Positions 1-23,260 of a stretch of DNA of 23,441 nt are shown one piece after another. A model generated the notes under the pieces. That model had not been told where the DNA came from. It saw only the letters and a program-made list of their open reading frames with translations, and made no database searches. The stretch comes from a phage. Positions within the stretch are counted from its first letter, which is position 1. Every line of letters begins with the position of its first letter. The position numbers and the translations under genes are program-made. The DNA is taken from sequence record PZ049722.1. One strand, given 5' to 3'.

Positions 1-1147
1 TGATCAACCGACCACGCACGAGCGGGCGCTTATTTATGTGCAGGTGCGTGCTGGGCGCCGAGATGCGAAGACCCTCTGCGAGGCGCTGATCAGCGCGACC
101 AGAAGCGCGGCCGAGCACCAATCTTCTTGACGGCGCCCGCCCTTCATGAGCATGACCCACCCCGGCGGCGGCCGATCACCCTCGCGATGTTCTCCGACCT
201 GCCTTACCGCGCTGTCCATTGAGCTGATCATCAACAAGGTCGGCAACGCCCGCGCTGAAGGGGCCGGGTCGACCAGGCGCACAACATCGCTCGAGCGTGA
301 GTTCCGAAGCGGCTTGCCCCTCATGGACAAGCCCAGCAACCTGCGAGCAGATCGACATCTTAATGCTGGCTCGAGATCCAACACACACCACCGCCATCCA
401 CGACACCACCAGCGCACCCGCTACTGCGCTGCAAGGCATCCCGCCTCTGCAGCTGCGCATCGCGGCCGGCTGCCGAGACCTGCCGCGAGCTGGCTGATCG
501 CCCAGCCGGAGAAATGGACGCCCCCCGCCAAACGCGCGAGCCGTTCCGCCGCGCCGGAGCATGCATCGCCGACGGTGCGGGCCTGATGGTCGGTGACAAG
601 CGTGCGCCGATCGCCCCGCAACCCCCATGCGCGCTACGAGGAGAGATGCGCCCAGCTCCGTGCTGGTCGGCGAACGACGGTCGCTAGCATTACCACGTGG
701 TCCAGCGCGTTCATAAGGCATGACAACGGCTTCGCCTCAACCGGTGCTACACCTGCCGAGCTGACCGGCCAGCGGATCCGCTCCTGCTGCCGGAGAGCCA
801 GGCCGAGCAGACCAGCACAGACGTTGCACCCCAGCTCGCTGGATGCACCTGACCACCCTACCGCAGGCCGACAAGGTGGGAAGAGGCGCGCGCCACGCCG
901 ATTTCGGCGGCGAGATCGACCCCGTTCAAGTAACAGGCCGAATACCATGCTGCGGGCCTACCTGCCAACTGCCGAGAGCAGCGAAAGCCGCTCCGGCCTG
1001 GCCTCGGCGGAGCTGAAAGCCGCTGCAAATGCATCGAGCTGGCCTAGTCGCCCGCCCCTGGGCAGCGGCTGGACGCCGAGTCCGACTGGGGTTGCTCAAG
1101 GCCAAGGACCCCGACGGCGCCATGGAGGAGCCCCGCTCGACGCCTGA
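1..1147 (+). pseudogene. Decayed partial copy of the Mu-like transposase A gene (central to C-terminal part), several frameshifts
   Basis: ORF 146..586 contains LSIELIINKVGNARA and QRTRY, and ORF 593..1147 contains NTMLRAYLP, SRSGLAS.ELK, LGSGWTP and YPDGAMEE, all matching the 590-aa transposase at 9469..11241 but in different frames. Confidence 0.65.
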
Positions 1148-1313
1148 TCGTCGCCGAGCTCCAAGCCCCTGCATGCTCAGGCCCTGCCCCTGGTTCGGGC
1201 GGCTGCCGAAACTGTCTCAAGAAAGTGCTGGCCAGCGCGGGCAAGGCTGGCTCACCTGGGGCCAGGGCGGGTGAAGCTCAGCGGCAGAAGCCATCTGCCC
1301 AACTGATTACCTC

Positions 1314-2388
1314 ATGGCCAGCGGCCGAAGAGCATTTCCTGATGAACAGCCAGCCGGGGGGGGCAACACTGCGCCCCAACCAACAAGGTGCTGGAAGCTT
1401 CGATGCGGCTGTGCGCTGTGTTTGAAGAGAGGCAAGACCCTGCGCCAGCAAATGCGGCCGGCCCTCGCAACCCGGAAAACAAATCAAACGAAAACCTGCA
1501 CACCACAAGGCCAACCCCGGCTCCACCGGAGGTGCTGCGACCAGACACCCAAAGCGGCGTTCAACCTCGACCGCGACCCCTTCGACGACCTCGAGTTCGG
1601 CCGGATGAGATGCGTCCCTGAGCTCGATATCCGGCTAACATCTCCGTGCCGAAACACACTACGCGCCACCACGGCTCTCCTGGCCGGCTGGTGGGCGAGT
1701 CCGGCGCCGGAGCTGCGCCGGCGCCAGCCCGGCCAGCTGCCGCCTTGCAACCAGCGGTGATCGTCATCGAACCCTACGTGCTGGGCATGGAGGACCAACT
1801 CCTATAGGGAAGGACACGGAAGGCCACCCGCACGGACAGTCCGCCCGCCGCTGCTGGAACCCTTGCGAAAAGCTGAAATCCAGCCCCCCGAAGCCCTGCT
1901 TCTGCAAAAGATGTACGCCATGCTCAAAGCGTCACGGCGCAGGCTTTCGCCACGTGCTGATCATCGAAGAGGTGCACTCCAGCCTGCCCATCCCCACGCT
2001 CACGCACCTCAAGCGCATGCGTGACCAGCTCGAACACCTGGCTTCGACAATGCTGTCCATGTCCTCATCGGCCAGCCCAGCTGCTGATCAAACGAGCCCG
2101 CAAGGCGACGTGCGTCGAGGTGGCCCAGCCCATCGAGATTGCGCAACTGCAGCCCATCCTCACGTCGGTGACCTGGACTGCGCACCTGGCATTTTCGTTG
2201 CAAGCACGCCGGCAAGCAGCTCCGAGCTGATCGATGCCAGCGGCGTGCAGGCCATCATCGAACGCCTGGGCAGCTCGGGTAAAGTACGTGCCAGCCAGCT
2301 CCACCCGCTGGCCATCGGCAACATGTTCAACGCCGCCTCAACCTCGCCGCCGAAATCGGCGAAAGCCGCATCACCGCTGATGTTGTGA
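1314..2388 (+). pseudogene. Decayed copy of the MuB-like ATPase gene, frameshifted
   Basis: ORF 1314..1760 has AFNLDRDPFDDL and ORF 1954..2388 has LIIEE.HS.LPIPTL.HLKRMRDQLEH and LIDASGVQAIIERLGSSGK, matching the 390-aa protein at 8300..9472 with indels. Confidence 0.65.
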
Positions 2389-2402
2389 AGGGGGTGTGAG
2401 CC

Positions 2403-2828
2403 ATGGCCATCACCATCGAACAAATCATGGAGCAGGCTCAGGTGTACGCCTCGGCCTGGAGCCTGGTCGGCGGGCCGTTCGACCAGGGCAACCTGCTGCA
2501 GCAGGCCGAGCTGGAGAAGCGGTGCTGCTGGAGATGGTCACTGCCTTCGAGGACGAACCCATGCCGCAGGGGCCCAGGAAGCGCAGCTCGACCTGGCTAA
2601 GCCGCTGATCGAGTGGCACCAGCACCGCATTGGCAACCTCAGCAAGTTGCAGCAGGCGGTAGAGGGCACTGAGATCCGCCTCGGCGAGGCTGATGCCGAT
2701 CCCATCGTCCTGCAGGCGCGATGCTAAAAGGCTGGCGCTTCGCCTTGGCGATTGCCGAGCAGCAGTTCGAGAAGTTCCCGCTGTCCATCGAGCGCAAAGC
2801 TCCCACCAGCGACGAGGAGGATGACCAT
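2403..2828 (+). pseudogene. Frameshifted copy of the 141-aa early gene found intact at 7871..8296
   Basis: ORF 2403..2600 shares the first 39 residues (MAITIEQIMEQAQVYASAWSLVGGPFDQGNLLQQAELEK) with the 141-aa protein and then leaves frame; 1-bp deletions seen relative to the right arm. Confidence 0.6.
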
Positions 2829-3176
2829 GCGCGCTCCCAACGTCATCCCGCTCAGCGCCAGATCGCCGCTGAGATCTCCATCCAACACGCGCTGCCCATG
2901 TGCACCGTGCTGACCCCTGAACTGGCCGACAAGCTCCGCGCCCTCAACGACATGACCCGCCGCCTGCGCGCGGCGGGCGTGCGTATCGAGGCCGCATCCC
3001 CGCTCGACGGCAAGATCTTCATCAACGCCGAAGACTCCGACCAGCTCGCCGCATCGTTCCGCAGTGAGTGGCGCGGCGTGAGTTGGAGCACCAAAGGCGT
3101 CCACACCATCAACAGCGTCCGCCTCGGCGGCTGCCAAGTCTGCTGGCTTACGCCAGTGAAGGAGCAGGAGTCATGA
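2826..3176 (+). pseudogene. Frameshifted copy of the 118-aa early gene found intact at 7518..7874
   Basis: ORF 2721..3176 carries the C-terminal 100 residues of the 118-aa protein fused to the upstream frame; about two 1-bp deletions near 2815-2860. Confidence 0.6.
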
Positions 3177-3355
3177 GCCTCGAAGCACGCCTGCGCGAAG
3201 CGCTGGAGCTGCTCAAACGCAGCGCCGGCTACGCCTCGGCCTATCCGACCATCGGTGGCCACAAGCTCAACGACGAGATCTGCCGCTTCCGCGAGGCGGT
3301 ACAGGCCGAACTCGAAACCAACGCCCAACAAGCCGAGGAAGAAACCCATGGCTGA
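3173..3355 (+). CDS. Small hypothetical early protein (60 aa), duplicate of 7339..7521
   Basis: Internal ATG with GGAG-type RBS; identical to right-arm copy. Confidence 0.5.
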   Translation: MSLEARLREALELLKRSAGYASAYPTIGGHKLNDEICRFREAVQAELETNAQQAEEETHG

Positions 3356-3968
3356 GCAAATCGCAATCCCCGAAGGCTTCGTCAAGAATGCTGCCGGCCA
3401 TCTGGTGCCGGAACACCAGGTGCGCGAGCACGACAAGCTGCGCGACAGCGTCGCCCGCGAGCTGGCCAACCAGGCCGTGGCCATCAGCGAGGCGCTGGGC
3501 GCGTTCAAGGCTAAGGCCCTGGGCGATATCGCCGACCTGATCGCCATCTCGGCCGAGAAGTACCAGGTCAAGCTCGGCGGCAAGAAGGGCAACGTCTCGA
3601 TCGTCACCTACGACGGCCGCTACAAGATCGAGCGCGCCATGGCCGAGCGCATCACCTTCACCGAGGAGATCCTCGCGGCCAAGGAGCTGATCGACCAGTG
3701 CATCCGCAAATGGAGCGAAGGCGCCGACCAGCACCTGCGCATCCTGGTCGACCGCGCGTTCCGCGCCAACCGCCAGGGCCAGATCAAGACCGGCGACGTG
3801 CTCAGCCTGCTGCGCGTCGAGATCGAAGACCCCGACTGGCAGCGCGCGATGGAGGCCCTGAAGGACTCCATCCAGGTCAACGGCACCGCCGTATACATCC
3901 GCGTCTACCAGCGCGTCGGCAACACCGACCGTTACGAGCCCATCAGCCTCGACATTGCGAAGGTGTGA
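3348..3968 (+). CDS. Conserved phage early protein (206 aa, possibly DUF3164-like), duplicate of 6726..7346
   Basis: Identical protein on both arms; start MAEQIAIPEGF after RBS. Confidence 0.55.
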   Translation: MAEQIAIPEGFVKNAAGHLVPEHQVREHDKLRDSVARELANQAVAISEALGAFKAKALGDIADLIAISAEKYQVKLGGKKGNVSIVTYDGRYKIERAMAERITFTEEILAAKELIDQCIRKWSEGADQHLRILVDRAFRANRQGQIKTGDVLSLLRVEIEDPDWQRAMEALKDSIQVNGTAVYIRVYQRVGNTDRYEPISLDIAKV

Positions 3969-3970
3969 CC

Positions 3971-4678
3971 ATGGACCAGGATCGCATTCTCGAAAAGATC
4001 AAGAAGTGCATGGAGATGGCCAAGGGCAAGGGCTCGAATCCGAACGAGGCCGAAATCGCCCTGCGCCAGGCGCATAAGCTGATGGAGGCCTACAACCTGG
4101 AGATGGGCGACGTCCTGGCCAGCATGGCCGGTGAGGTCACCATCGAAGCCGGCTCGGATGGTACCCCACCCACCTGGCGTATCCGCCTGGCTCAGGTGTG
4201 CGCCCATGCGTTTGGCACGCGCATGATCATCACGCAGAAGCTCACGGACCACTTCGACGTTGTAGGCGCCTTCATCTTTGTGGGCTGCGCAGCGGCACCA
4301 GAGCTGAGCGGATACGCCTACCAAGTGCTGGAGCGGCAGCTGCAGAAGGCTCGACGTGAGTTCCTGCAGTCACCGAAGAACAAGCGCTGCAAGCGCTCAA
4401 CCAAGGTCGCGCGCGGCGATCACTTCGCTAACGGCTGGATTGATGCCGTGTACCTCAAGGTCGACCAGTTCGCTGGCGTTGACGACAACATCGCCGAAGC
4501 GATCGAAGCCTACATGGCGAAGCACCACGCCGACCTGGGCAAGCACGAAATGAAGCGCCGCAAGCTCAAAGCCCGCGATGAAGGTGCCGCCGAGGCCGGT
4601 TACCAGGCTGGCAAGAGCGCCCAACTGCACCACGGACTTGGCCACAAGCCCGTCGCCCGACTGACTCAGGGGGTGTGA
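3971..4678 (+). CDS. DUF2786-like phage protein (235 aa), duplicate of 6016..6723
   Basis: N-terminus MDQDRILEKIKKCMEMAKGKGSNPNEAEIALRQAHKLMEAYNLE resembles the DUF2786 signature; identical on both arms. Confidence 0.55.
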   Translation: MDQDRILEKIKKCMEMAKGKGSNPNEAEIALRQAHKLMEAYNLEMGDVLASMAGEVTIEAGSDGTPPTWRIRLAQVCAHAFGTRMIITQKLTDHFDVVGAFIFVGCAAAPELSGYAYQVLERQLQKARREFLQSPKNKRCKRSTKVARGDHFANGWIDAVYLKVDQFAGVDDNIAEAIEAYMAKHHADLGKHEMKRRKLKARDEGAAEAGYQAGKSAQLHHGLGHKPVARLTQGV

Positions 4679-4679
4679 G

Positions 4680-4904
4680 ATGCAAACCCTTGAATGCACC
4701 GTGAAGTACTACATGGGTGCCTACCAGACCAACACCGTGCGCAGCCAGCGCGCCAGCTGCAGCCACTCCGAGGACGAGGCCGTGCGCCACCTGGGCGTAA
4801 AGCTGTTCGGCGAGCAGCTCCACCACGTCGAGCGCATCGATCTCAAACCCAGCGATCAGCCGGGCATGAGCCGCTGGCTGATCGTTGGTCGGGAGGTGCA
4901 GTGA
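4680..4904 (+). CDS. Small hypothetical protein (74 aa), duplicate of 5790..6014
   Basis: Identical ORF on both arms; starts 2 nt after upstream stop. Confidence 0.45.
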   Translation: MQTLECTVKYYMGAYQTNTVRSQRASCSHSEDEAVRHLGVKLFGEQLHHVERIDLKPSDQPGMSRWLIVGREVQ

Positions 4905-5327
4905 TGGGCCATCCAATTTTCCAAGACGCCCCCTCAAGGGACATGACCAAGGCTCAGGAGCGCCAGGCCGAGCTAGATGCGCAGGTCGAAGCCTTCCTGG
5001 CCAAGGGCGGGGAGATCAAGGCCTTCGACAACTTCCGCCGTCCTGATCCAGAGTGGGCCCTGGCGCTCGAAGTCGATCAACCCCGAGCAGCAGAAGCCAG
5101 CTCAGGCTGCGCCCATCAAGGCGAAACCGGCCAAGCCCGCCGCTCCTGTGAAGGCAAAGCCGGTACCGGAGGTGCCAGCCGAACCGGTGGCGGTGGCTAC
5201 CATCGACCTCAGCGCTGAGCTGCGCGCCTTGCGCAAGCAGACTGCAGCCATCAACCGCCCGGCCTGGCGCGAGTTGAGGTCTTTCGAGGACTCGACGCCA
5301 GCAACGCGGCGCAGCAGCGCGCGATAG
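4904..5327 (+). pseudogene. Frameshifted copy of the 130-aa K/P/A-repeat protein encoded intact at 5395..5790
   Basis: Identical for 47 residues after MGHPIF, then leaves frame near 5041-5050 where the two arms differ by an indel; the proper frame continues in ORF 4977..5327. Confidence 0.6.
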
Positions 5328-5398
5328 CTGTCGTCATCCATGCCCAGTTGGCCCTTGGCGATGTGGATCTTGCTGAGTACGCCTTTCGAGATACTCAT
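5261..5398 (-). pseudogene. GemA-like (Mu gp16, DUF1018-like) gene, 5' fragment of about 46 codons cut by the inversion junction
   Basis: N-terminus MSISKGVLSKIHIAKGQLGMDDDSYRALLRRVAGVESSKDL fits the GemA family start; beyond codon 46 ORF 5102..5398 reads antisense to duplicated sequence. Confidence 0.6.
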
Positions 5399-5790
5399 GC
5401 GCGACCACCCATAGAGCAGCTCAGGCGATTAAGGCGGCGGTTGATGGCTGCAGTCTGCTTGCGCAAGGCGCGCAGCTCAGCACTGAGGTCGATGGTAGCC
5501 ACCACCACCGGTTCGGCTGGCACCTCCGGTACCGGCTTTGCCTTCACAGGAGCGGCGGGCTTGGCCGGTTTCGCCTTGATGGGCGCAGCCTGAGCTGGCT
5601 TCTGCTGCTCGGGGTTGATCGACTTCGAGCGCCAGGGCCCACTCTCGATAGGACGGCGGAAGTTGTCGAAGGCCTTGATCTCCCCGCCCTTGGCCAGGAA
5701 GGCTTCGACCTGCGCATCTAGCTCGGCCTGGCGCTCCTGAGCCTTGGTCATGTCCCTTGAGGGGGCGTCTTGGAAAATTGGATGGCCCAT
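5395..5790 (-). CDS. Hypothetical early protein (131 aa) with K/P/A-rich repeat tail
   Basis: Start MGHPIF overlaps upstream stop; contains PAQAAPIKAKPAKPAAPVKAKPVPEVPAEP. Confidence 0.5.
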   Translation of the reverse strand: MGHPIFQDAPSRDMTKAQERQAELDAQVEAFLAKGGEIKAFDNFRRPIESGPWRSKSINPEQQKPAQAAPIKAKPAKPAAPVKAKPVPEVPAEPVVVATIDLSAELRALRKQTAAINRRLNRLSCSMGGRA

Positions 5791-6014
5791 CACTGCACCT
5801 CCCGACCAACGATCAGCCAGCGGCTCATGCCCGGCTGATCGCTGGGTTTGAGATCGATGCGCTCGACGTGGTGGAGCTGCTCGCCGAACAGCTTTACGCC
5901 CAGGTGGCGCACGGCCTCGTCCTCGGAGTGGCTGCAGCTGGCGCGCTGGCTGCGCACGGTGTTGGTCTGGTAGGCACCCATGTAGTACTTCACGGTGCAT
6001 TCAAGGGTTTGCAT
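5790..6014 (-). CDS. Small hypothetical protein (74 aa)
   Basis: ORF in operon context, tight spacing to neighbours. Confidence 0.45.
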   Translation of the reverse strand: MQTLECTVKYYMGAYQTNTVRSQRASCSHSEDEAVRHLGVKLFGEQLHHVERIDLKPSDQPGMSRWLIVGREVQ

Positions 6015-6015
6015 C

Positions 6016-6723
6016 TCACACCCCCTGAGTCAGTCGGGCGACGGGCTTGTGGCCAAGTCCGTGGTGCAGTTGGGCGCTCTTGCCAGCCTGGTAACCGGCC
6101 TCGGCGGCACCTTCATCGCGGGCTTTGAGCTTGCGGCGCTTCATTTCGTGCTTGCCCAGGTCGGCGTGGTGCTTCGCCATGTAGGCTTCGATCGCTTCGG
6201 CGATGTTGTCGTCAACGCCAGCGAACTGGTCGACCTTGAGGTACACGGCATCAATCCAGCCGTTAGCGAAGTGATCGCCGCGCGCGACCTTGGTTGAGCG
6301 CTTGCAGCGCTTGTTCTTCGGTGACTGCAGGAACTCACGTCGAGCCTTCTGCAGCTGCCGCTCCAGCACTTGGTAGGCGTATCCGCTCAGCTCTGGTGCC
6401 GCTGCGCAGCCCACAAAGATGAAGGCGCCTACAACGTCGAAGTGGTCCGTGAGCTTCTGCGTGATGATCATGCGCGTGCCAAACGCATGGGCGCACACCT
6501 GAGCCAGGCGGATACGCCAGGTGGGTGGGGTACCATCCGAGCCGGCTTCGATGGTGACCTCACCGGCCATGCTGGCCAGGACGTCGCCCATCTCCAGGTT
6601 GTAGGCCTCCATCAGCTTATGCGCCTGGCGCAGGGCGATTTCGGCCTCGTTCGGATTCGAGCCCTTGCCCTTGGCCATCTCCATGCACTTCTTGATCTTT
6701 TCGAGAATGCGATCCTGGTCCAT
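6016..6723 (-). CDS. DUF2786-like phage protein (235 aa)
   Basis: Same protein as 3971..4678; internal start MDQDRILEK. Confidence 0.55.
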   Translation of the reverse strand: MDQDRILEKIKKCMEMAKGKGSNPNEAEIALRQAHKLMEAYNLEMGDVLASMAGEVTIEAGSDGTPPTWRIRLAQVCAHAFGTRMIITQKLTDHFDVVGAFIFVGCAAAPELSGYAYQVLERQLQKARREFLQSPKNKRCKRSTKVARGDHFANGWIDAVYLKVDQFAGVDDNIAEAIEAYMAKHHADLGKHEMKRRKLKARDEGAAEAGYQAGKSAQLHHGLGHKPVARLTQGV

Positions 6724-6725
6724 GG

Positions 6726-7346
6726 TCACACCTTCGCAATGTCGAGGCTGATGGGCTCGTAACGGTCGGTGTTGCCGACGCGCTGGTAGACGCGGATGTA
6801 TACGGCGGTGCCGTTGACCTGGATGGAGTCCTTCAGGGCCTCCATCGCGCGCTGCCAGTCGGGGTCTTCGATCTCGACGCGCAGCAGGCTGAGCACGTCG
6901 CCGGTCTTGATCTGGCCCTGGCGGTTGGCGCGGAACGCGCGGTCGACCAGGATGCGCAGGTGCTGGTCGGCGCCTTCGCTCCATTTGCGGATGCACTGGT
7001 CGATCAGCTCCTTGGCCGCGAGGATCTCCTCGGTGAAGGTGATGCGCTCGGCCATGGCGCGCTCGATCTTGTAGCGGCCGTCGTAGGTGACGATCGAGAC
7101 GTTGCCCTTCTTGCCGCCGAGCTTGACCTGGTACTTCTCGGCCGAGATGGCGATCAGGTCGGCGATATCGCCCAGGGCCTTAGCCTTGAACGCGCCCAGC
7201 GCCTCGCTGATGGCCACGGCCTGGTTGGCCAGCTCGCGGGCGACGCTGTCGCGCAGCTTGTCGTGCTCGCGCACCTGGTGTTCCGGCACCAGATGGCCGG
7301 CAGCATTCTTGACGAAGCCTTCGGGGATTGCGATTTGCTCAGCCAT
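6726..7346 (-). CDS. Conserved phage early protein (206 aa, possibly DUF3164-like)
   Basis: Same protein as 3348..3968. Confidence 0.55.
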   Translation of the reverse strand: MAEQIAIPEGFVKNAAGHLVPEHQVREHDKLRDSVARELANQAVAISEALGAFKAKALGDIADLIAISAEKYQVKLGGKKGNVSIVTYDGRYKIERAMAERITFTEEILAAKELIDQCIRKWSEGADQHLRILVDRAFRANRQGQIKTGDVLSLLRVEIEDPDWQRAMEALKDSIQVNGTAVYIRVYQRVGNTDRYEPISLDIAKV

Positions 7347-7521
7347 GGGTTTCTTCCTCGGCTTGTTGGGCGTTGGTTTCGAGTTCGGCCTGTACCGCCT
7401 CGCGGAAGCGGCAGATCTCGTCGTTGAGCTTGTGGCCACCGATGGTCGGATAGGCCGAGGCGTAGCCGGCGCTGCGTTTGAGCAGCTCCAGCGCTTCGCG
7501 CAGGCGTGCTTCGAGGCTCAT
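7339..7521 (-). CDS. Small hypothetical early protein (60 aa)
   Basis: Same protein as 3173..3355. Confidence 0.5.
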   Translation of the reverse strand: MSLEARLREALELLKRSAGYASAYPTIGGHKLNDEICRFREAVQAELETNAQQAEEETHG

Positions 7522-7874
7522 GACTCCTGCTCCTTCACTGGCGTAAGCCAGCAGACTTGGCAGCCGCCGAGGCGGACGCTGTTGATGGTGTGGACGCCTT
7601 TGGTGCTCCAACTCACGCCGCGCCACTCACTGCGGAACGATGCGGCGAGCTGGTCGGAGTCTTCGGCGTTGATGAAGATCTTGCCGTCGAGCGGGGATGC
7701 GGCCTCGATACGCACGCCCGCCGCGCGCAGGCGGCGGGTCATGTCGTTGAGGGCGCGGAGCTTGTCGGCCAGTTCAGGGGTCAGCACGGTGCACATGGGC
7801 AGCGCGTGTTGGATGGAGATCTCAGCGGCGATCTTGGCGCTGAGCGGGATGACGTTGGGAGCGCGCATGGTCAT
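7518..7874 (-). CDS. Hypothetical early protein (118 aa)
   Basis: Intact ORF in early operon; the left-arm copy is frameshifted. Confidence 0.5.
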   Translation of the reverse strand: MTMRAPNVIPLSAKIAAEISIQHALPMCTVLTPELADKLRALNDMTRRLRAAGVRIEAASPLDGKIFINAEDSDQLAASFRSEWRGVSWSTKGVHTINSVRLGGCQVCWLTPVKEQES

Positions 7875-8296
7875 TCCTCCTCGTCGCTGGTGGGAGCTTT
7901 GCGCTCGATGGACAGCGGGAACTTCTCGAACTGCTGCTCGGCAATCGCCAAGGCGAAGCGCCAGCCTTTTAGCATCGCGCCCTGCAGGACGATGGGATTG
8001 GCATCAGCCTCGCCGAGGCGGATCTCAGTGCCCTCTACCGCCTGCTGCAACTTGCTGAGGTTGCCAATGCGGTGCTGGTGCCACTCGATCAGCGGCTTAG
8101 CCAGGTCGAGCTGCGCTTCCTGGGCCCCTGCGGTATGGGCTTCGTCCTCGAAGGCAGTGACCATCTCCAGCAGCACCAGCTTCTCCAGCTCGGCCTGCTG
8201 CAGCAGGTTGCCCTGGTCGAACGGCCCGCCGACCAGGCTCCAGGCCGAGGCGTACACCTGAGCCTGCTCCATGATTTGTTCGATGGTGATGGCCAT
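7871..8296 (-). CDS. Hypothetical early protein (141 aa)
   Basis: Intact ORF directly downstream of the B gene; the left-arm copy is frameshifted. Confidence 0.5.
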   Translation of the reverse strand: MAITIEQIMEQAQVYASAWSLVGGPFDQGNLLQQAELEKLVLLEMVTAFEDEAHTAGAQEAQLDLAKPLIEWHQHRIGNLSKLQQAVEGTEIRLGEADANPIVLQGAMLKGWRFALAIAEQQFEKFPLSIERKAPTSDEEE

Positions 8297-8299
8297 GGC

Positions 8300-9472
8300 T
8301 CACACCCCCTTCACAACATCAGCGGTGATGCGGCTTTCGCCGATTTCGGCGGCGAGGTTGAGGGCGGCGTTGAACAGGTTGCCGATGGCCAGCGGGTAGA
8401 GCTGGCTGGCACCGTCCTTACCCGAGCTGCCCAGGCGTTCGATGATGGCCTGCACGCCGCTGGCATCGATCAGCTCGTCGAGCTGCTTGCCGGCGTGCTT
8501 GCAACGAAATGCCAGGTGCGCGTCCAGGTCACCGACGGTGATGGGCTGCAGTTGCGCAATCTCGATGCGCTGGGCCACCTCGCGCACGTCGCCGTTGCGC
8601 GGGCTGAGTTTGATCAGCAGCTCGGGCTGGCCGATGAGGATGATGGACAGCAGTTTGTCGAAGCCGTGTTCGAGCTGGTCACGCATGCGCTTGAGGTGCT
8701 TGAGCGTGGGGATGGGCAGCGAGTGCGCCTCTTCGATGATCAGCACATGGCGGAAGCCTGCGCCGTGGCTGGCTTTGAGCGTGGCGTGCATCTGCGCGAA
8801 GCGGGCTTCGGGGCTGGATTTGGCTTTCTCCAGCGGCGCCACAGCGGCCATCACAGACTCGGCAATGTGGGTGGCCTTCAGGGATTTGCCCTTGGTGTCG
8901 TTGTCCTCCATGCCCAGCACGTAGGGTTCGATGACGATCACCGGCTCATTGCGCAGGCGGTGCGCCAGGTCGCGGCGCAGCGTGCTTTTGCCGGCGCCGG
9001 ACTCGCCCACCACGGCCAGGAAGCCATCATGGCGCGCGGTCTGGTACATGCTCTCGCGGATGTAGCGGATATCGGGGCTCAGGTACATCTCATCGGCCGA
9101 CTTGAGGTCGTCGAAGGGGTCGCGGTGCAGGTTGAACGCCCGCTTGGTGTCTGGTCGCAGCACTTGTTTAGCCATTAGCATGTCGGGGCACTCCTGGGTT
9201 TCGTGATTGTTTTCCGGGGTTGCAGGGGCCTGCGCGTTGGCGCGCGCAGGCTCCATCTCTTCAAACGCGGCGCGCACAGCGTCGAACTCCGCGCCTTGTT
9301 GCATCAGGTACTCAGTGATGCCCCAGGCCAGCTGGTTCATCGGGATGCTCTTGGGCCACTGGCCGTGGTTGATCAGTTGGGCGATGGCTGCCGGGCTGAG
9401 CTTCACCGCCCTGGCCAGGTCGGCCTGGCCCTTGCCCACGCTGGCCAGCACTTGCTTGAGACGTTTCATCAC
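8300..9472 (-). CDS. Mu B-like transposition ATPase / target DNA activator (390 aa)
   Basis: Walker A GESGAGKST, N-terminal HTH-like region, sits directly downstream of and overlapping the transposase gene. Confidence 0.8.
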   Translation of the reverse strand: MMKRLKQVLASVGKGQADLARAVKLSPAAIAQLINHGQWPKSIPMNQLAWGITEYLMQQGAEFDAVRAAFEEMEPARANAQAPATPENNHETQECPDMLMAKQVLRPDTKRAFNLHRDPFDDLKSADEMYLSPDIRYIRESMYQTARHDGFLAVVGESGAGKSTLRRDLAHRLRNEPVIVIEPYVLGMEDNDTKGKSLKATHIAESVMAAVAPLEKAKSSPEARFAQMHATLKASHGAGFRHVLIIEEAHSLPIPTLKHLKRMRDQLEHGFDKLLSIILIGQPELLIKLSPRNGDVREVAQRIEIAQLQPITVGDLDAHLAFRCKHAGKQLDELIDASGVQAIIERLGSSGKDGASQLYPLAIGNLFNAALNLAAEIGESRITADVVKGV

Positions 9473-11241
9473 TCACCCCCAACCAGGCGCAGGCCTGGGC
9501 GTGCGGGCGCTTGCAGCTGGGCGACGATGGCGTCGAGCTGCTCCTCCATGGCGCCATCGGGGTAGTTGGCCTTGAGCCATTCCATCGACTCGGGCGTCCA
9601 GCCGCTGCCCAGGCGCGCGCGCAGCGCCTTGGCCAGCTCGATGCGGTTGAGCGGCTTCAGCTCCACCGAGGCCAGGCCGGAGCGGCTTTCCAGCTCTATA
9701 CCGCGCTTGGGCAGGTAGGCCGGCAGCATGGTATTGGCCTGTTCCTTGAACGGGTCGATCTCGCCGCCGAATGGCGTGGCGCGCGCCTTCTTGGCCTTCT
9801 CGGCAGCCTCGATACTGTCGGTGCCAGTGGCGAGCTGGTCCAACGTCTTCTTGGTCTGCTCGGCCTGGCTCTCCGGCAGCGAGCGGATGCCCTCGCCGAT
9901 CACTCGGCGGGTAGCACCGTTGGCGGCGAAGCCGTTGTCATCCTTGTCGACGCGCTCGACCACGTGGTAATGCTCGCGACCGTCTTCGCCGACCAGCACG
10001 AGCTGGGCGCTCTCCTGGTCGCGCCATGGGTTGCGGGTGATCAGCACACTGTCGCCGACCATCAGGCCCGGCACGTCGGCGATGCAGTACTCGGCGCCGC
10101 GGAACGGCACGCGCAGCTTGGCGGTGACCTTGCGCTTCTCCGGCTGGGCGATCGCCAGCTCGCGGCAGATCTCGGCGGCCGGCGCGATGCGCAGCTGCTC
10201 AGGGCGGATCAGCATCCAGGCGCCGTAGCGGGTGCGCTGGTGGCGGGTGTGGATGGCGGTGGCGTTGTAGTGCCGCATCCAGCGCCCGGCCAGGGCGTTG
10301 ATCTGCTCCAGGGTGCTGGGCTTGTCCATCAGGCGCAAGCCGCTCTCGAACTCACGCTCGACGATGTTGTGCGCCTGCTCGACCTGGCCCTTGGCGCGGG
10401 CGTTGCCGACCTTGTTGATGATCAGCTCGATGGACAGCGCATGGCACAGGTTGCGGAACATCGCAGAGGTCATGGCCGCACCGGGGTCGGTCATGATCAT
10501 GAAGGGCGCACCGTGGAATGGATCGTGCTCGCCACGTTTCTGCATCGCGCTGATCAGCACCTCGCAGAGGTTCTTCGCACTCTCGGCGCCCAGCACGTAC
10601 TGCACATAAATAGTGCCGCTGGTGTGGTCGGTGATCACGTAGCGCCACAGGCGCTGCTTCTCGATGCGCTTGAGATTCTCGGGCTTGCCGTCGTAGAACT
10701 CGGCCTTGTTCATGGCGCGGGCGCCGTCGTCGGCCAAGTAGAATTGGGTCGAGATCGAGGCGTCGATCTGCCAGACGTGGTTCGGGTGCAGGCTGACCAG
10801 CTCCACGGCCGGCGCCGGGCGCAGCACCTGATCCGGGTGCAGGCCGTAGGCGCGCAGGGCACGGGCGATGGCATCGAGCGACAGCGGGCGGATCTCGCCG
10901 GTGGCGCCGTCGATGATCTCGGCGCGGATCTGCCCATTGCTGCGCAGGCGCTCCACGGCGCGCTCCAGGGTGCTGAGTTGTTTATCGTTGTCGCGGATGG
11001 ACTGAATCAGCACGGCGCTGATCAGCTCCGCCTCATGCCGCTCCAGAGCCGAGGTGCCGGCATCGCTGCGACGTTTACGGGGAGTGGTCACGGTGACCTC
11101 CTTGAGCTTGCGGTAAACGGTTGCGAGGGTGATGCCCATGTCCGTTGCTGCCGCCCTGCACAGGGCGGTTTTGCTGCCGCGCGGCGCCTGCTCGATGTCT
11201 CGAGCCAGGGCTACCAGGCGTTGGGTCATCACTGCACTCAT
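9469..11241 (-). CDS. Mu A-like DDE transposase (590 aa)
   Basis: Size, N-terminal DNA-binding region, core motifs HVWQIDAS and MIMTDPGAAMTS typical of Mu/B3/D3112 transposases, followed by a B-like ATPase. Confidence 0.85.
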   Translation of the reverse strand: MSAVMTQRLVALARDIEQAPRGSKTALCRAAATDMGITLATVYRKLKEVTVTTPRKRRSDAGTSALERHEAELISAVLIQSIRDNDKQLSTLERAVERLRSNGQIRAEIIDGATGEIRPLSLDAIARALRAYGLHPDQVLRPAPAVELVSLHPNHVWQIDASISTQFYLADDGARAMNKAEFYDGKPENLKRIEKQRLWRYVITDHTSGTIYVQYVLGAESAKNLCEVLISAMQKRGEHDPFHGAPFMIMTDPGAAMTSAMFRNLCHALSIELIINKVGNARAKGQVEQAHNIVEREFESGLRLMDKPSTLEQINALAGRWMRHYNATAIHTRHQRTRYGAWMLIRPEQLRIAPAAEICRELAIAQPEKRKVTAKLRVPFRGAEYCIADVPGLMVGDSVLITRNPWRDQESAQLVLVGEDGREHYHVVERVDKDDNGFAANGATRRVIGEGIRSLPESQAEQTKKTLDQLATGTDSIEAAEKAKKARATPFGGEIDPFKEQANTMLPAYLPKRGIELESRSGLASVELKPLNRIELAKALRARLGSGWTPESMEWLKANYPDGAMEEQLDAIVAQLQAPARPGLRLVGGE

Positions 11242-11244
11242 GGG

Positions 11245-12192
11245 TCAGGCTCCCTGCTGCTGGCTGGCCAGCGCGGCGGCGACTTCCTCGTCGGCGCCAT
11301 CGCGCAGCCAGGCCGGCACTACCGTGGCCACGGGCGTGGCCTCGATGCCGTACTCCGCGCGGATCTCCAGCAGCGCTTGCTCCACCTGGGCCAGCAGGCC
11401 GGCGGCAAACACACGCTGGTCGGCGCCCTCGTGCTGCATCAGCTGGTGAATGGCCGGGTACAGCGCGCCGCTGATAGCCGCCTCGGCGGCGCCGGCCTTG
11501 GCGGTGGCCTCCAGGCGCAGTTCCTGCAGTTGCTCGTCCAGCGGCTTGACCTCTACCACTGGCTTTTTGGCGAGCTGGGTGGACAGCTCGTTGATCTTGG
11601 CGTCCTTGTCGGCCATCACGCGGCCCTGGGCGGTTTTGTCCTCGCGGGCGTCGCGCAGGGCTTTGCGTAGCTCCTTGACGGACATGGTGGCCACGTCGTC
11701 GAGGCTCAGCTCGCCGGTCTGGCCAGTGAGTTCCAGCTCCTGGATCTCTTCGTCGTCCAGGACGAGCATCTCGAACAGCTTGGATTGGTTGCCGATGGCC
11801 TTGGCCATGGCTGCGTTGCTGCCGAGAGAGGCGAATTTAGTGGCGGACTGGATGAACCTTTTGGCTACGCTCCACTCGATACCCAGCGCATCTAGTCGGT
11901 CAATAAAATTGCCGTGCCCGCATGCCTTCCTGAGCGTATATAGGCCGCGACCGACCTCCAGGCACGCTTCGACACTGCGGCGCATATTGGCAGTGATATC
12001 GCGTTGGATCAGATCCGGGTCGGTGCTGTCGGCTGGCAACAGGTAGCCGACCAGTGCGGCAGCCTCGCGCACGTCGGCTTCATGCTCGGCGCTGAGCGTG
12101 GCCACCTGGTGCTGGCGGGCCAGCAGGGTTTCGCTCTGCTGTTGATCGTCTGCGGCCAGCTCGATGGTGGCGTTGGGTTTACGAGCCATCAC
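11245..12192 (-). CDS. Hypothetical early protein (315 aa), acidic and coiled-coil rich; possibly DUF3102-like
   Basis: Long ORF with high GC3 directly upstream of the transposase; family assignment is tentative. Confidence 0.5.
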   Translation of the reverse strand: MMARKPNATIELAADDQQQSETLLARQHQVATLSAEHEADVREAAALVGYLLPADSTDPDLIQRDITANMRRSVEACLEVGRGLYTLRKACGHGNFIDRLDALGIEWSVAKRFIQSATKFASLGSNAAMAKAIGNQSKLFEMLVLDDEEIQELELTGQTGELSLDDVATMSVKELRKALRDAREDKTAQGRVMADKDAKINELSTQLAKKPVVEVKPLDEQLQELRLEATAKAGAAEAAISGALYPAIHQLMQHEGADQRVFAAGLLAQVEQALLEIRAEYGIEATPVATVVPAWLRDGADEEVAAALASQQQGA

Positions 12193-12470
12193 GCAGCCCT
12201 CCGCGCAGCATGGCCAGCAAGCCGCAGCAGGCGCTCGATCGCCTCGGTGCGGTTGCCATTGGCCTCGACCAGGGCATTGCGGAACTCGTCGGCGCCACGG
12301 CGGCAGCCGTAGTAGTAGGCGTCGAACTCCAGGCTGCCCTGTGGGTAGTTGACGGTGGTGGGCTCACCCTCGATGCGCAGCTTGAGCGCGGCGCAGAGCC
12401 CCTCGACATAGACGCTGCTGTGGCGATCGCCACCGCGTAGCAGGTGCTGGGCCAGTTTTTGGTAGTTCAT
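12189..12470 (-). CDS. Hypothetical early protein (93 aa)
   Basis: ORF overlapping the downstream start, operon context. Confidence 0.4.
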   Translation of the reverse strand: MNYQKLAQHLLRGGDRHSSVYVEGLCAALKLRIEGEPTTVNYPQGSLEFDAYYYGCRRGADEFRNALVEANGNRTEAIERLLRLAGHAARRAA

Positions 12471-12486
12471 CGTGGTGCTCCTGTTG

Positions 12487-12786
12487 TTAATGGGCGCTGA
12501 TGCGCGCCTGGATTTCAGTGATACGGGCCTGGCCGCGCTGCAGCTCTTCGGCGGTGGCCATGGCGTACTTCAGAAACGCGATGCTTGGGGCGAAGCGGCC
12601 GGTGTCGAGGCGCGTGGCGAAGCCGGCCTCGATCAGGGTGTCCATGTAGCGGGTGATGTTGGCCGGGCTCTCGCCCAGGCCCTTGGCCAGCTCGGTGTTG
12701 CTCAGACCCGTGAGGGTGTGGCCACGCAGCGCGTTGAGTACGCGCAGCACGCGCAGGGCGCTGTCGTTGGTGCGTTTGGTGGTCAT
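12487..12786 (-). CDS. Small winged-helix/HTH DNA-binding protein (99 aa)
   Basis: LRVLRVLNALRGHTLTGLSNTELAKGLGESPANITRYMDTLIEAGF resembles an IclR/MarR-type HTH. Confidence 0.5.
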   Translation of the reverse strand: MTTKRTNDSALRVLRVLNALRGHTLTGLSNTELAKGLGESPANITRYMDTLIEAGFATRLDTGRFAPSIAFLKYAMATAEELQRGQARITEIQARISAH

Positions 12787-13058
12787 GCGCTGCGCTCCAT
12801 CGGTACGACGACCAGGGCGCCGGATTGGTTGATGCCGGGTTGGCCACCGAGGGCCGTCGCCAACTGCTCGTGCAGGCTCATGGCGTCTTCACGCCAGCCT
12901 TCGGCGTTCTCCTCCATGCGGGCCAGGTCGGCGCGCAGGCGGGCGTTCTCTTCGTCCAGGCGTACGACCTCCTGGCAGAGCTGCTCCAGGGCCTGTGCGT
13001 CCAGGCGTGCCAGCAGCGTGCGGATCTCAATGGCCTTACTCATCGTCAGCCACTCCAA
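12783..13058 (-). CDS. Small coiled-coil protein (about 86-91 aa)
   Basis: ORF with heptad-like leucine and charged pattern; start may be the internal MSKAIEIR. Confidence 0.4.
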   Translation of the reverse strand: MEWLTMSKAIEIRTLLARLDAQALEQLCQEVVRLDEENARLRADLARMEENAEGWREDAMSLHEQLATALGGQPGINQSGALVVVPMERSA

Positions 13059-13563
13059 AGTCGAGTTGAGGGGTTTGCGCCTGGGCGACGTTGCCGTGGT
13101 GCCAGGCGAGGGATTCGAGACCGGCGCGGATGGCGTCCAGGGTCTGCTCGGCGGTTTGCTTGCCGTCGTAGAAGGCCATCAGCGCGCCGGTGGTGTTGTG
13201 CAGCACGCCCTGCAGCTGCTGCAGGTCGCTGGCGTTGCAGGCCTTGCCCACGGGGATGTCCACCAACAGCTTGCCGTGGGCGGCAGCCAGGTAACGGGTG
13301 ATCAGGGGCAGGCCGCAGGCTTTCTCCAATGGCAGCACCATGGTCAGCGGCAGGCGGCCATTGCCCATCCACTTGTAGAGCGAGCTGGCGTTGTTCTGGC
13401 ACAGATGGTCTGTGGCAAGCCGCTCGATCCCGCGGTTATGGCGCTGCAATGCATGCTCGGCGCAGCCGCTCATAGCCTCAGCGGGCGAGCGCGGTACCCA
13501 GTGTTTCCAATTGCGGCGGGTCATTGGATGGGGCTCCTTTGGGCCGTCTGTTGCGGCTTCCAA
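13036..13563 (-). CDS. Hypothetical early-region protein (175 aa), possible regulatory protein
   Basis: High-GC3 ORF that starts next to a divergent intergenic region. Confidence 0.5.
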   Translation of the reverse strand: MEAATDGPKEPHPMTRRNWKHWVPRSPAEAMSGCAEHALQRHNRGIERLATDHLCQNNASSLYKWMGNGRLPLTMVLPLEKACGLPLITRYLAAAHGKLLVDIPVGKACNASDLQQLQGVLHNTTGALMAFYDGKQTAEQTLDAIRAGLESLAWHHGNVAQAQTPQLDFGVADDE

Positions 13564-13647
13564 TCAAAAACTCTGTTTCACCCTTGGCAATGTCGTTACC
13601 AACGGGCCAGTCTGTTGGGGTACATTCACCAACGCGGAGAGCCCGCC

Positions 13648-14293: not shown

Positions 14294-14325
14294 GGCTGTG
14301 ACCCTCTGGCGGCGGTTGCGTTGGG

Positions 14326-14535: not shown

Positions 14536-14589
14536 GGCGGTGGCTCCTTTTGGGTTGCTGAATGATGTTTGTGTTTTGTTGGGCTGATG

Positions 14590-15073: not shown

Positions 15074-15095
15074 CAGCGCGTATGGGGATTAGGGA

Positions 15096-22130: not shown

Positions 22131-23260
22131 CCACATCCCGCATCCTGGGCCCAGATGGCCAGCCGATCCGCCTGGCCGAGATCCGCGAGCCGCAGACTGC
22201 CCACATCACCAGCCTGCACCACGAAGTGGGTAACCACCCTTCGCGCGGGCTGACGCCGAGCAAGCTGGCTCAGATCCTCGATCAGGCCGAGCAAGGCGAC
22301 GTGATCGCCCAGTACGAGCTGTTCGATGACATCGAAGAGAAGGACGGCCACGTGTTCGCCGAGATGGACAAGCGCCGCCGTGCCGTCGCCCAGCTCGAAT
22401 GGCAGATCGTGCCGCCGGACAACCCCACGGCCAAGGAGAAGGAAGCCGCCGCTGCCCTGCAGTCGCTGTTGGCCGGGCTGGATGACTTCGAGCTGATGCT
22501 GTTCGACGTGACCGACGCCATCGGCAAAGGCTTTGCCTGCCTGGAGTTCGACGGCTGGCACCGCGTAGACGGTGACTGGCTGCCGCGCGCGATCGATCAC
22601 CGGCCGCAGACCTGGTTCCAGCTCACCCGCGGCGAGCGTCGCCAGGAGATCCGCCTACGCGGCTCGATGGGCGGTGAGCCCCTGCAGCCATTCGGCTGGA
22701 TCACCCACGTGCATAAGTCCAAGAGCGGCTACCTGGAGCGCAGCGCACTGTTCCGCGTGCTGGTGTGGCCGTACCTGTTCAAGAACTACAGCGTGGGTGA
22801 CCTGGCCGAGTTCCTGGAGATCTACGGCATCCCGATGCGCGTGGGCAAGTACCCAGGCGGCGCCACCGAGAAGGAGAAACTGACCCTGCTGCGTGCCCTG
22901 GCCCAGCTCGGCCACAGCGCCGCTGGCATCATTCCGATCGGCATGGAGATGGACTTCCTCAACGCCGCCGAAGGTGACCCGGCTGCGTTCAAGCTGATGA
23001 TCGACTGGTGCGAACGCACCCAGAGCAAGGCCATCCTGGGCGGCACGCTCACCAGCGGTACCGGCGATGGCACCAACACCAACGCCCTGGGCAACGTGCA
23101 CAACGAGGTACGCCTCGACCTGCGTGACTCCGACGCCAAGCAGCTGGCCGCCACCATCAGCCGTGACCTGGTGTACCCCATCGCGGTGCTCAACGGCCTG
23201 GCCGACAGCTGGAAGCGCTGCCCGCGCCTGGTGTTCCGACCCAGGAACCGGAGGATCTGA
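22124..23260 (+). CDS. Portal protein (Mu gp29-like, DUF935-like); reading frame breaks near 23236 and coding continues in another frame to the window end
   Basis: ILDQAEQGDVIAQYELFDDIEEKDGHVFAEMDKRRRAV is typical of the Mu gp29 family; the frame open from 23167 to 23441 encodes PTQEPEDLKAYADSLPQLVKLGFKIPRQW... Confidence 0.7.
   Translation: MVTTSRILGPDGQPIRLAEIREPQTAHITSLHHEVGNHPSRGLTPSKLAQILDQAEQGDVIAQYELFDDIEEKDGHVFAEMDKRRRAVAQLEWQIVPPDNPTAKEKEAAAALQSLLAGLDDFELMLFDVTDAIGKGFACLEFDGWHRVDGDWLPRAIDHRPQTWFQLTRGERRQEIRLRGSMGGEPLQPFGWITHVHKSKSGYLERSALFRVLVWPYLFKNYSVGDLAEFLEIYGIPMRVGKYPGGATEKEKLTLLRALAQLGHSAAGIIPIGMEMDFLNAAEGDPAAFKLMIDWCERTQSKAILGGTLTSGTGDGTNTNALGNVHNEVRLDLRDSDAKQLAATISRDLVYPIAVLNGLADSWKRCPRLVFRPRNRRI

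What the first reader, a model, noticed from the sequence alone, without database searches (positions are those of the whole stretch)
1..10700. Fold-back inverted duplication of the prophage early region around a 166-bp loop
The left 5.26 kb is the reverse complement of about 5427..10650. Two ORF pairs are identical across the axis (237 of 237 aa and 326 of 326 aa) and the axis sits near 5344-5347. The loop 5261..5426 belongs to the right arm: the 131-aa gene ends there and the GemA-like gene starts with an ATGA overlap. So the original sequence runs right to left down to about 5261 and then folds back. Possible origins are replication template switching, aberrant intramolecular transposition by the Mu-like element, or a chimeric fold-back read.
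Basis: partly seen in the sequence, partly recalled or inferred. Interest (0 to 1): 0.75.

Follow-up and report, generated by a model that had tools for sequence, protein, structure and literature searches.

The report
Fold-back chimera at a contig end
The mirror-image duplication of the phage's early genes is real in this sequence, but it is almost certainly a hairpin-shaped chimeric DNA molecule caught by very few noisy long reads at the end of an assembly, not a feature of the phage genome.

Summary
The inverted repeat exists: 1-5259 is the reverse complement of 5436-10637, around a unique 176-nt loop (5260-5435; not 166 nt). It is not a faithful copy. Identity is 99.8% next to the axis (2881-5259), 96% at 1996-2880 and 79.7% at 1-1995.

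The differences look like raw long-read error, not evolution:
- They fall evenly on the three codon positions.
- Transversions outnumber transitions.
- About 160 indel runs are mostly 1 nt.
- All indels lie on the left arm when polarised against an outgroup phage.
- The transposase A and B genes are intact on the right arm and shattered on the left.

The underlying element is an ordinary B3-like (Beetrevirus) transposable Pseudomonas phage. Its leftward early operon should continue gemA, HI_1489_N gene, mor, left end. Twelve public relatives do exactly that, including a 98.8%-identical contig.

The window follows them down to base 5248 and then switches strands inside a natural 12-bp inverted repeat (5248-5259 / 5436-5447). 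This indicates a polymerase self-priming or template-switch hairpin. It rules out a Mu-type transposition junction, since no phage end is present. It also rules out a simple unsplit or missed-adapter read, since the loop is authentic and asymmetric. A rare in-vivo event cannot be excluded. A stable genomic feature is very unlikely.

The parts
1..1995 (+). Distal left arm: error-laden copy of the reverse complement of about 8708-10637 (part of transposase A and most of B). No intact ORFs.
   Evidence: Identity is 79.7%, with 166 mismatches, 162 inserted and 97 deleted bases. Mismatches are even over codon positions (MuA 38/39/39, MuB 33/41/39) and transversions exceed transitions, 131 to 98. 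All indels are left-arm-only against the PM105 outgroup. PM105 A and B align only as fragments in three frames.
1996..2880 (+). Intermediate left arm: partly corrected copy of about 7816-8707.
   Evidence: Identity is 96.1%. Residual differences are mostly single-base deletions, several in short homopolymers.
2881..5247 (+). Proximal left arm: near-perfect reverse complement of 5448-7815.
   Evidence: Identity is 99.8%. Only four differences remain: 5045 extra G, 5049, 5191 and 5213. The extra G at 5045 frameshifts the left copy of the 131-aa gene. Relatives L004 and L009 align gap-free to the right arm but need a gap against the left arm.
5248..5259 (.). Crossover: left copy of a natural 12-bp inverted repeat (CCATCAACCGCC), inside gemA codons.
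   Evidence: Alignments A1 and A2 show the 12-mer is shared by natural gemA in relatives and by the reverse complement of 5436-5447. Homology to all relatives ends exactly at 5248.
5260..5435 (-). Unique 176-nt loop: authentic phage sequence holding the gemA 5' end and the 3' end of the 131-aa gene.
   Evidence: It is identical to the natural relative L012. It is not self-complementary. It contains no adapter-like sequence.
5436..5447 (.). Right copy of the natural 12-bp inverted repeat (GGCGGTTGATGG), inside the 131-aa gene.
   Evidence: Reported as I10. Both copies are present 176 nt apart in the independent contig L012.
5448..10637 (-). Right arm: the authentic copy of the early operon. It holds the DUF2786/DUF7168 gene, DUF3164 gene, Gam-like gene, transposition protein B and part of transposase A.
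   Evidence: ORFs are intact. PM105 A (79% aa) and B (75% aa) align full length in one frame. There are no right-only indels against the outgroup. Domains were identified.
5248..5398 (-). Truncated gemA: codons 1-50 of about 188. The reading frame then runs into fold-back sequence.
   Evidence: The Pfam GemA match covers only profile positions 1-36 of 119. The full 188-189-aa GemA in relatives shares the N-terminus ...NSRQAGRLM and then diverges.
5395..5790 (-). 131-aa early gene with a SutA RNAP-binding domain, directly upstream of gemA.
   Evidence: Pfam PF20661, E = 1.1e-8. A 100%-identical protein, P0001, and 67 other homologues exist in the database.
8300..11241 (-). Transposition protein B (8300-9472) and DDE transposase A (9469-11241) of a B3-like transposable phage.
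   Evidence: AAA_22 and rve domains. Both align full length to PM105 B and A. The region is syntenic with Beetrevirus PM105.
23237..23241 (+). Single frameshift in the Mu-type portal gene, 200 nt from the right end of the window.
   Evidence: The UMP151 portal aligns at aa 1-370 in frame +2 and at aa 373-416 in frame +1.

Best explanation
The window is probably a whole contig from a long-read-based assembly of a B3-like (Beetrevirus-type) transposable Pseudomonas phage or prophage.

The left 5.2 kb comes from a physical hairpin (fold-back) DNA molecule. A strand being synthesised leftward through the early operon ended at 5248, inside gemA. Its 3'-terminal 12 nt (GGCGGTTGATGG) annealed to the complementary 12-mer 176 nt behind it on the same or the sister strand. 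A polymerase then copied back along the early operon.

That molecule was read by one or very few noisy long reads. The assembler used it to extend the contig in place of the true 1.2-1.3 kb end (rest of gemA, HI_1489_N gene, mor, phage left end).

Polishing with ordinary reads corrected the part of the false arm near the axis, where they map equally to both arms. It left the distal 2 kb at raw-read quality, because ordinary reads there align better to the true arm, which continues beyond 10637.

Shown here:
- the geometry of the fold-back;
- the 12-nt microhomology at the crossover;
- the one-sided, error-like degradation of the left arm;
- the normal continuation in relatives.

Inferred:
- that the window is a contig end;
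- how few reads support the junction;
- the polishing account of the identity gradient;
- where the strand switch happened (in vitro during amplification or library repair, or in a single cell or virion).
For: (1) Identity is graded and the damage is one-sided: 99.8%, 96.1% and 79.7% with distance from the axis. Where the arms differ, the right arm agrees with outgroup PM105 at 307 columns and the left arm at 55. There are 104 insertions and 42 deletions private to the left arm and none private to the right.

(2) The differences are not evolutionary. They are even over codon positions, transversions exceed transitions, and indels are mostly 1 nt. A and B are intact on the right arm and shattered over three frames on the left.

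(3) The crossover lies in a natural 12-bp inverted repeat. The window is identical to the independent contig L012 from 5460 down to 5248, then follows the reverse complement of its own right arm. L012 carries both 12-mers 176 nt apart and continues into full GemA, an HI_1489_N protein and Mor.

(4) None of 12 relatives has the junction. These are 6 IMG/VR contigs, Pseudomonas sp. P818, 2 metagenome contigs and 3 Logan contigs.

(5) The structure removes three quarters of gemA, mor and the left transposition end. It therefore cannot be a functional phage genome.

(6) A second lesion, a portal frameshift, sits 200 nt from the other end of the window, which stops mid-gene. This fits low-quality contig ends.

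(7) The literature describes matching artefacts:
- Foldback reads make up about 0.55-0.6% of ONT gDNA reads, and the paper's detection tool classes a read as a foldback artefact when the two alignments fall within 200 bp on opposite strands (PMC12338684).
- More than 85% of MDA chimeras are inverted, and over 70% prime at 2-21 nt of complementarity (PMC1855051).
- The trailing arm of inverted duplicates is basecalled poorly on nanopores (PMC7229812).
Against: No reads, coverage or assembly metadata are available, so support for the junction cannot be counted. The source contig was not found in any collection.

The inner 2.4 kb of the left arm is almost perfect. This could also mean that several molecules carried the fold-back.

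The same microhomology signature is expected from in-vivo template switching at a replication fork.

That the window equals a whole contig is inferred only from its odd length and its degraded ends.

The error profile (insertions exceeding deletions, about 8% mismatches) does not identify a platform. The net excess of insertions is opposite to the 'missed bases' reported for nanopore trailing arms.
Confidence: 0.82

Rival explanations
1. A real but rare in-vivo fold-back. During replication of the transposing phage or prophage, a nascent strand switched template at the 12-bp inverted repeat. This is fork-associated, inverted-repeat-mediated template switching, as in the first step of ODIRA or fold-back inversion. 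It produced a defective palindromic molecule in a minority of cells or particles, which was then sequenced.
For: The junction has exactly the expected signature: a short natural inverted repeat (12 bp, 176-nt spacer) at the crossover. The loop is authentic asymmetric sequence, so the molecule was physically a hairpin and not an informatic concatenation. Lytic transposable phages replicate intensively.
Against: The sequence cannot distinguish this from the in-vitro version. The raw-read noise in the distal arm, with none in the true arm, shows far lower support than for the normal sequence. In-vitro foldback and MDA chimeras are common. The product lacks mor and the left end and so could not propagate.
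Confidence: 0.12
2. A stable, heritable inverted duplication (a large palindrome) in the host chromosome: a rearranged prophage remnant present in all cells.
For: The assembler produced it, and the inner 2.4 kb of both arms agree almost perfectly.
Against: Equal copy number should give equal consensus quality. Instead all 146 indels and most substitutions are on one arm. The contig stops inside the false arm. The gradient from 100% to 80% identity, with errors blind to codon position, cannot be evolutionary decay of a single duplication. From established knowledge, kilobase palindromes with short spacers are unstable in bacteria (SbcCD). No relative has the junction.
Confidence: 0.03
3. An informatic fold-back. 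This would be a nanopore read in which template and complement strands were not split, a PacBio subread with a missed SMRTbell adapter, or a de Bruijn graph 'hairpin' contig from short reads.
For: These are the commonest sources of palindromic reads and contigs (own knowledge for missed adapters and graph hairpins).
Against: Unsplit or missed-adapter reads turn around at the fragment end, giving a palindrome with no genomic loop or with adapter in the centre. Here the centre is 176 nt of authentic, non-self-complementary phage sequence, and the switch sits in a 12-nt microhomology. A short-read graph artefact would give 100% identical arms, not 80% identity with about 260 indel bases.
Confidence: 0.02
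4. Aberrant intramolecular transposition by the Mu-like transposase, meaning self-attack of the element.
For: The element encodes a DDE transposase and a MuB-like ATPase. From established knowledge, intramolecular replicative transposition creates inversions with inverted element copies.
Against: A transposition junction must join a phage terminal sequence to the target. The junction joins two internal sites, in gemA and in the 131-aa gene. No sequence related to the phage ends of relatives occurs in the window. In relatives the left end lies about 1.2-1.3 kb beyond the break. A 12-nt microhomology is not a feature of DDE strand transfer.
Confidence: 0.01

Closest known systems
Foldback (inverted-duplication) artefact reads in long-read sequencing (Heinz, Meyerson & Li 2025, PMC12338684)
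   Same: [quoted passage not shown] The breakpoints are less than 200 bp apart and no adapter lies between them.
   Different: Here the artefact is seen in an assembled contig, not in a read. The 176-nt authentic loop and 12-nt microhomology point to a physical hairpin rather than unsplit strands. Read-level symmetry cannot be checked.
Inverted chimeras of multiple displacement amplification (Lasken & Stockwell 2007, PMC1855051)
   Same: The rearrangement is inverted, with a short offset between the two breakpoints. Priming of the displaced 3' end occurred at a complementary stretch of 12 nt, within the reported 2-21 nt range. The event is intramolecular.
   Different: It is unknown whether this sample was amplified with phi29 polymerase.
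Inverted-repeat-mediated template switching in vivo (fold-back inversion; first step of ODIRA, as summarised in PMC7229812)
   Same: A short natural inverted repeat lies at the junction, and a large inverted duplication radiates from it.
   Different: ODIRA yields a stable triplication with an inverted middle copy and two junctions. Only one junction is visible here, support is minimal and the product is non-functional.
Beetrevirus (B3-like) transposable Pseudomonas phages, e.g. vB_PaeS_PM105 (NC_028667)
   Same: The authentic part of the window (5248-23441) is syntenic with these phages. The leftward early operon runs gp13, A, B, Gam-like, DUF3164, DUF2786/DUF7168, gemA. A repressor region follows, then the rightward holin, SLT endolysin, spanin, TerS, TerL and Mu-type portal. 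DNA identity is about 75% and A and B are 75-79% identical at the protein level.
   Different: The window lacks the last 1.2-1.3 kb (rest of gemA, HI_1489_N gene, mor, left end) and everything beyond the portal. The portal, TerS and TerL are closer to UMP151-type phages (79-87% aa).

Membership tests
Long-read foldback chimera / contig-end artefact | Two segments map to the same locus on opposite strands, with breakpoints within about 200 bp | tested here: met
   1-5259 pairs with 10637-5436, and the breakpoints are 176 nt apart. The criterion is taken from PMC12338684.
Long-read foldback chimera / contig-end artefact | The false arm carries single-read-level error while the true arm does not | tested here: met
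   Distal identity is 79.7%. All indels are private to the left arm, and the right arm agrees with the outgroup 307 to 55. Errors are blind to codon position.
Long-read foldback chimera / contig-end artefact | The junction is not supported by the bulk of reads, and normal reads pass straight through | not testable with these tools
   No reads or coverage are available. The indirect evidence is that 12 relatives, including a 98.8%-identical contig, pass straight through 5248 into gemA.
Long-read foldback chimera / contig-end artefact | Located at a contig end | tested here: inconclusive
   The window starts mid-gene in raw-quality sequence. It ends mid-portal with a frameshift 200 nt from the end. 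The source contig was not found.
MDA-type inverted chimera | Inverted join with a short offset, and 2-21 nt of complementarity at the priming site | tested here: met
   A 12-nt perfect inverted repeat lies at the crossover with a 176-nt offset. The criterion is from PMC1855051.
MDA-type inverted chimera | DNA was amplified with phi29 polymerase | not testable with these tools
   The sample's origin is unknown.
Unsplit template/complement read or missed SMRTbell adapter | A palindrome centred on a fragment end, with no unique genomic loop, or with adapter at the centre | tested here: not met
   The centre is 176 nt of authentic, non-self-complementary sequence identical to relative L012.
Mu-type transposition product | A transposon terminal sequence is joined to the target at the junction | tested here: not met
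   The junction joins two internal coding sites. The end regions of relatives (L013 11860-12353, PM105 1-130) have no match in the window.
Beetrevirus-like transposable phage (the underlying element) | DDE transposase A plus AAA+ transposition protein B in a leftward early operon, with a divergent rightward lysis and Mu-type head module | tested here: met
   Domains were identified. Synteny and 75-79% aa identity to PM105 A and B are shown. The portal and TerL match.
Beetrevirus-like transposable phage (the underlying element) | Complete left end: full gemA, mor and terminal transposase-binding sequence | tested here: not met
   gemA is cut after codon 50. mor and the end are absent from the window and are replaced by the fold-back.
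In-vivo inverted-repeat template switch (fold-back inversion / ODIRA-like) | A short inverted repeat at the junction | tested here: met
   A 12-bp inverted repeat is present in the natural sequence of relative L012.
In-vivo inverted-repeat template switch (fold-back inversion / ODIRA-like) | The rearrangement is present in cellular DNA before any in-vitro polymerase step, and is heritable or recurrent | not testable with these tools
   This needs reads or PCR on unamplified DNA.

The most novel reading that the evidence does not exclude
The fold-back is a genuine in-vivo product. In this reading, a replication fork running through a transposing B3-like phage switched strands at a 12-bp inverted repeat between the SutA-RBD gene and gemA. 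The result was a hairpin-ended or palindromic defective phage molecule that existed in the culture or community, and was possibly packaged. Single-molecule sequencing would then have caught a by-product of replicative transposition.
Probability: 0.1. Interest if true: 0.4.

Novelty: not a real feature. Interest (0 to 1): 0.08.

Why it matters
It matters mainly as quality control. The left 5.2 kb of this contig should be trimmed at 5247/5248. The 'duplicated' early genes, the broken transposase copies and the truncated GemA should not be annotated or counted as biology.

It also gives a clear recipe for recognising such cases from sequence alone:
- one-sided error that is blind to codon position and grows with distance from the axis;
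- a microhomology at the crossover;
- relatives that read straight through the breakpoint.

If the fold-back were real, it would be a modest example of inverted-repeat-mediated template switching in a replicating transposable phage.

Tried and rejected
(1) Two diverged phage copies or an old decayed duplication. Rejected: substitutions are even over codon positions, transversions exceed transitions, all indels are on one arm, and identity jumps to 100% near the axis.

(2) A transposition junction. Rejected: no phage end sequence is present in the window.

(3) An unsplit read or missed adapter. Rejected because of the authentic asymmetric 176-nt loop.

(4) A functional role for the 12-bp inverted repeat. 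It is present in L012, but only one arm is conserved in L013 and L014. About one such repeat is expected by chance in 18 kb of this composition (my estimate), and only one other perfect inverted repeat of at least 12 bp was found within 400 nt. I treat it as a chance repeat.

(5) Finding the source contig. Exact-protein look-ups for A, B and TerL found nothing. Scans of viral, genome and metagenome collections with a 36-mer adjacent to the junction returned only relatives with normal gemA.

(6) Identifying the sequencing platform from the error profile (7.9% mismatch, 7.7% insertion, 4.6% deletion). This was inconclusive.

(7) The DNA fold of 5240-5455 included 8 bp of the duplicated arms. It therefore overstates the natural stem and was not used as evidence.


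Full report
**1. Observation**

A repeat search and a BLAST of the left part of the window against the rest give one inverted duplication. Window 1-5259 pairs with 10637-5436, at 91.4% identity over 5334 columns with 252 mismatches and 173 gap openings. The core, 2860-5044 against 5650-7834, is 100% complementary over 2185 nt.

The unique centre is 5260-5435, 176 nt rather than 166. It is not self-complementary. Identity is 99.8% at 2881-5259, 96.1% at 1996-2880 and 79.7% at 1-1995. The last zone has 166 mismatches, 162 inserted bases and 97 deleted bases.

**2. What the underlying sequence is**

The right-hand 18 kb is an ordinary B3-like (Beetrevirus-type) transposable Pseudomonas phage.

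On the minus strand, from about 12.8 kb down to 5.25 kb, lies the early operon:
- homologues of PM105 gp14 and gp13;
- DDE transposase A (9469-11241);
- AAA+ transposition protein B (8300-9472);
- a Gam-like protein (7871-8296);
- a DUF3164 protein;
- a DUF2786/DUF7168 protein;
- a 131-aa protein with a SutA RNAP-binding domain (5395-5790);
- the start of gemA at 5398.

On the plus strand lie the following:
- a repressor-like HTH protein;
- holin;
- SLT endolysin;
- Rz-like spanin;
- TerS;
- TerL;
- a Mu-type portal.

This is the gene order of phage PM105 (about 75% DNA identity). In PM105, gemA and mor are the last genes before the phage left end.

**3. The junction**

Nine public sequences contain a 36-mer from the loop: six IMG/VR contigs, a Pseudomonas sp. 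P818 scaffold and two metagenome contigs. In every one, homology to the window runs from about 5393-5398 down to exactly 5248. It then continues as natural gemA, not as the left arm.

The best reference is a Logan contig, L012 from SRR32022290, which encodes the identical 131-aa protein. It matches window 6705-5248 at 98.8% with no gaps and stops matching at 5248. It then continues into a complete 188-aa GemA, an HI_1489_N-domain protein and Mor. Two further Logan contigs, L013 and L014, show the same order up to the phage end.

Alignments A1 and A2 show that the 12-mer CCATCAACCGCC (5248-5259) belongs both to natural gemA and to the reverse complement of 5436-5447. L012 carries both 12-mers 176 nt apart. 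The crossover therefore lies inside a natural 12-bp inverted repeat. GemA is cut after codon 50 of about 188. About 1.2-1.3 kb of phage is missing, comprising the rest of gemA, the HI_1489_N gene, mor and the left end.

**4. Nature of the differences between the arms**

The differences behave as sequencing error confined to the left arm.
- Mismatches fall equally on the three codon positions (A: 38/39/39; B: 33/41/39).
- Transversions exceed transitions, 131 to 98.
- Indels are mostly 1 nt.
- With PM105 as outgroup, the right arm agrees with the outgroup at 307 of the columns where the arms differ, and the left arm at 55.
- All 146 indel columns are private to the left arm: 104 insertions, 42 deletions and none private to the right.
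- PM105 A and B align full length in a single frame on the right arm, and only as fragments in three frames on the left.
- Residual differences in the intermediate zone are single-base deletions, several in short homopolymers.
- Even the near-perfect zone carries an extra G at 5045 that frameshifts the left copy of the 131-aa gene.

A single duplication cannot decay evolutionarily from 100% to 80% identity along its length with changes that ignore codon position.

**5. Mechanism**

The centre is authentic, asymmetric phage sequence, and the switch lies in a 12-nt complementarity. The molecule must therefore have been a physical hairpin made by a polymerase. A 3' end at 5248 paired with the complementary 12-mer 176 nt behind it and was extended back along the operon.

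This excludes three other origins:
- unsplit nanopore template/complement reads or missed SMRTbell adapters, which turn at a fragment end with no genomic loop;
- short-read graph hairpins, which give identical arms;
- DDE transposition, because no sequence related to the phage ends of relatives occurs in the window.

The signature matches two known artefacts. MDA chimeras are more than 85% inverted, and over 70% prime at 2-21 nt of complementarity (PMC1855051). Foldback artefact reads are found in long-read data at about 0.55-0.6% of ONT gDNA reads, with breakpoints within 200 bp (PMC12338684). On nanopores the trailing arm of an inverted duplicate is also basecalled badly (PMC7229812). However, the net excess of insertions here does not fit the 'missed bases' that paper reports.

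The gradient is most simply explained as follows, and this is inference. Ordinary reads polish the false arm near the axis, where they fit both arms equally. In the distal part they align preferentially to the true arm, which continues beyond 10637, so the false arm stays at raw quality there. The window also ends mid-portal with a frameshift 200 nt from its right end. This fits a whole contig with poor ends. A 5.2-kb chimeric extension would outcompete the true 1.3-kb tip in tip-clipping assemblers, which is again inference.

**6. Real or artefact**

The sequence cannot tell whether the strand switch happened in a tube or in a cell. It does show that the fold-back has far less read support than the normal sequence. 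The true arm has no private indels and the false arm has 146. The product lacks mor and the left end and could not be a viable phage.

I therefore rate the alternatives as follows:
- a chimeric or rare hairpin molecule at a contig end, not a genomic feature: 0.82;
- a genuine but rare in-vivo template-switch product: about 0.12;
- a stable palindrome: about 0.03;
- an informatic fold-back: about 0.02;
- transposition: about 0.01.

**7. Comparison and novelty**

The underlying phage is a new but unremarkable member of a well-known group. The fold-back belongs to known classes of sequencing and assembly artefact. Nothing here is novel biology, and interest is low. The practical consequence is to trim the contig at 5248 and to ignore the duplicated genes.

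**8. Limits**

The source contig was not found. No reads or metadata exist here, and the platform could not be inferred. Read mapping and a junction k-mer count in the original data would settle the matter.

Noticed in passing
window 5395-5790 (-): A 131-aa early phage protein directly upstream of gemA carries a SutA RNA-polymerase-binding domain (Pfam PF20661, E = 1.1e-8, above the gathering score). 68 homologues sit in Pseudomonas, Ectopseudomonas and Stutzerimonas prophages, nearly all with the same domain. This may be a phage factor that targets host RNAP.
   Followed up: partly
window 23237-23241 (+): The Mu-type portal gene (from 22124) has a single frameshift. The UMP151 portal aligns at aa 1-370 in one frame and at aa 373-416 in another. 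The window ends inside the gene at about aa 440 of 524. This is likely a consensus error near a contig end.
   Followed up: partly
window 14500-16900: A low-GC island (0.555-0.58, against about 0.65 elsewhere) lies between the repressor region and the lysis cassette. ORFs 15096-15833 (only a C-terminal lipoprotein-like PHROG match), 15932-16270 and 16267-16860 have no Pfam, PHROG or PADLOC family. This may be accessory or moron cargo.
   Followed up: partly
window 14847-14878: A perfect 32-bp palindrome (AGTCAAATAGCGCGAC/GTCGCGCTATTTGACT) lies inside the repressor-like HTH ORF 14636-15073. An imperfect 31-nt hairpin at 15831-15894 directly follows the 245-aa ORF.
   Followed up: no
window 12472-13968 (+): The longest ORF in this stretch (498 aa, no family hit) is antisense to conserved early genes, the PM105 gp14 and gp16 homologues at 12490-12786 and 13039-13524 on the minus strand. 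It is most likely a spurious high-GC ORF.
   Followed up: partly
L012 1874-2422; L013 10959-11510: Relatives carry a roughly 182-aa gene with an HI_1489_N domain (PF27180) between gemA and mor. PM105 lacks it. The gene falls in the part missing from the window.
   Followed up: no
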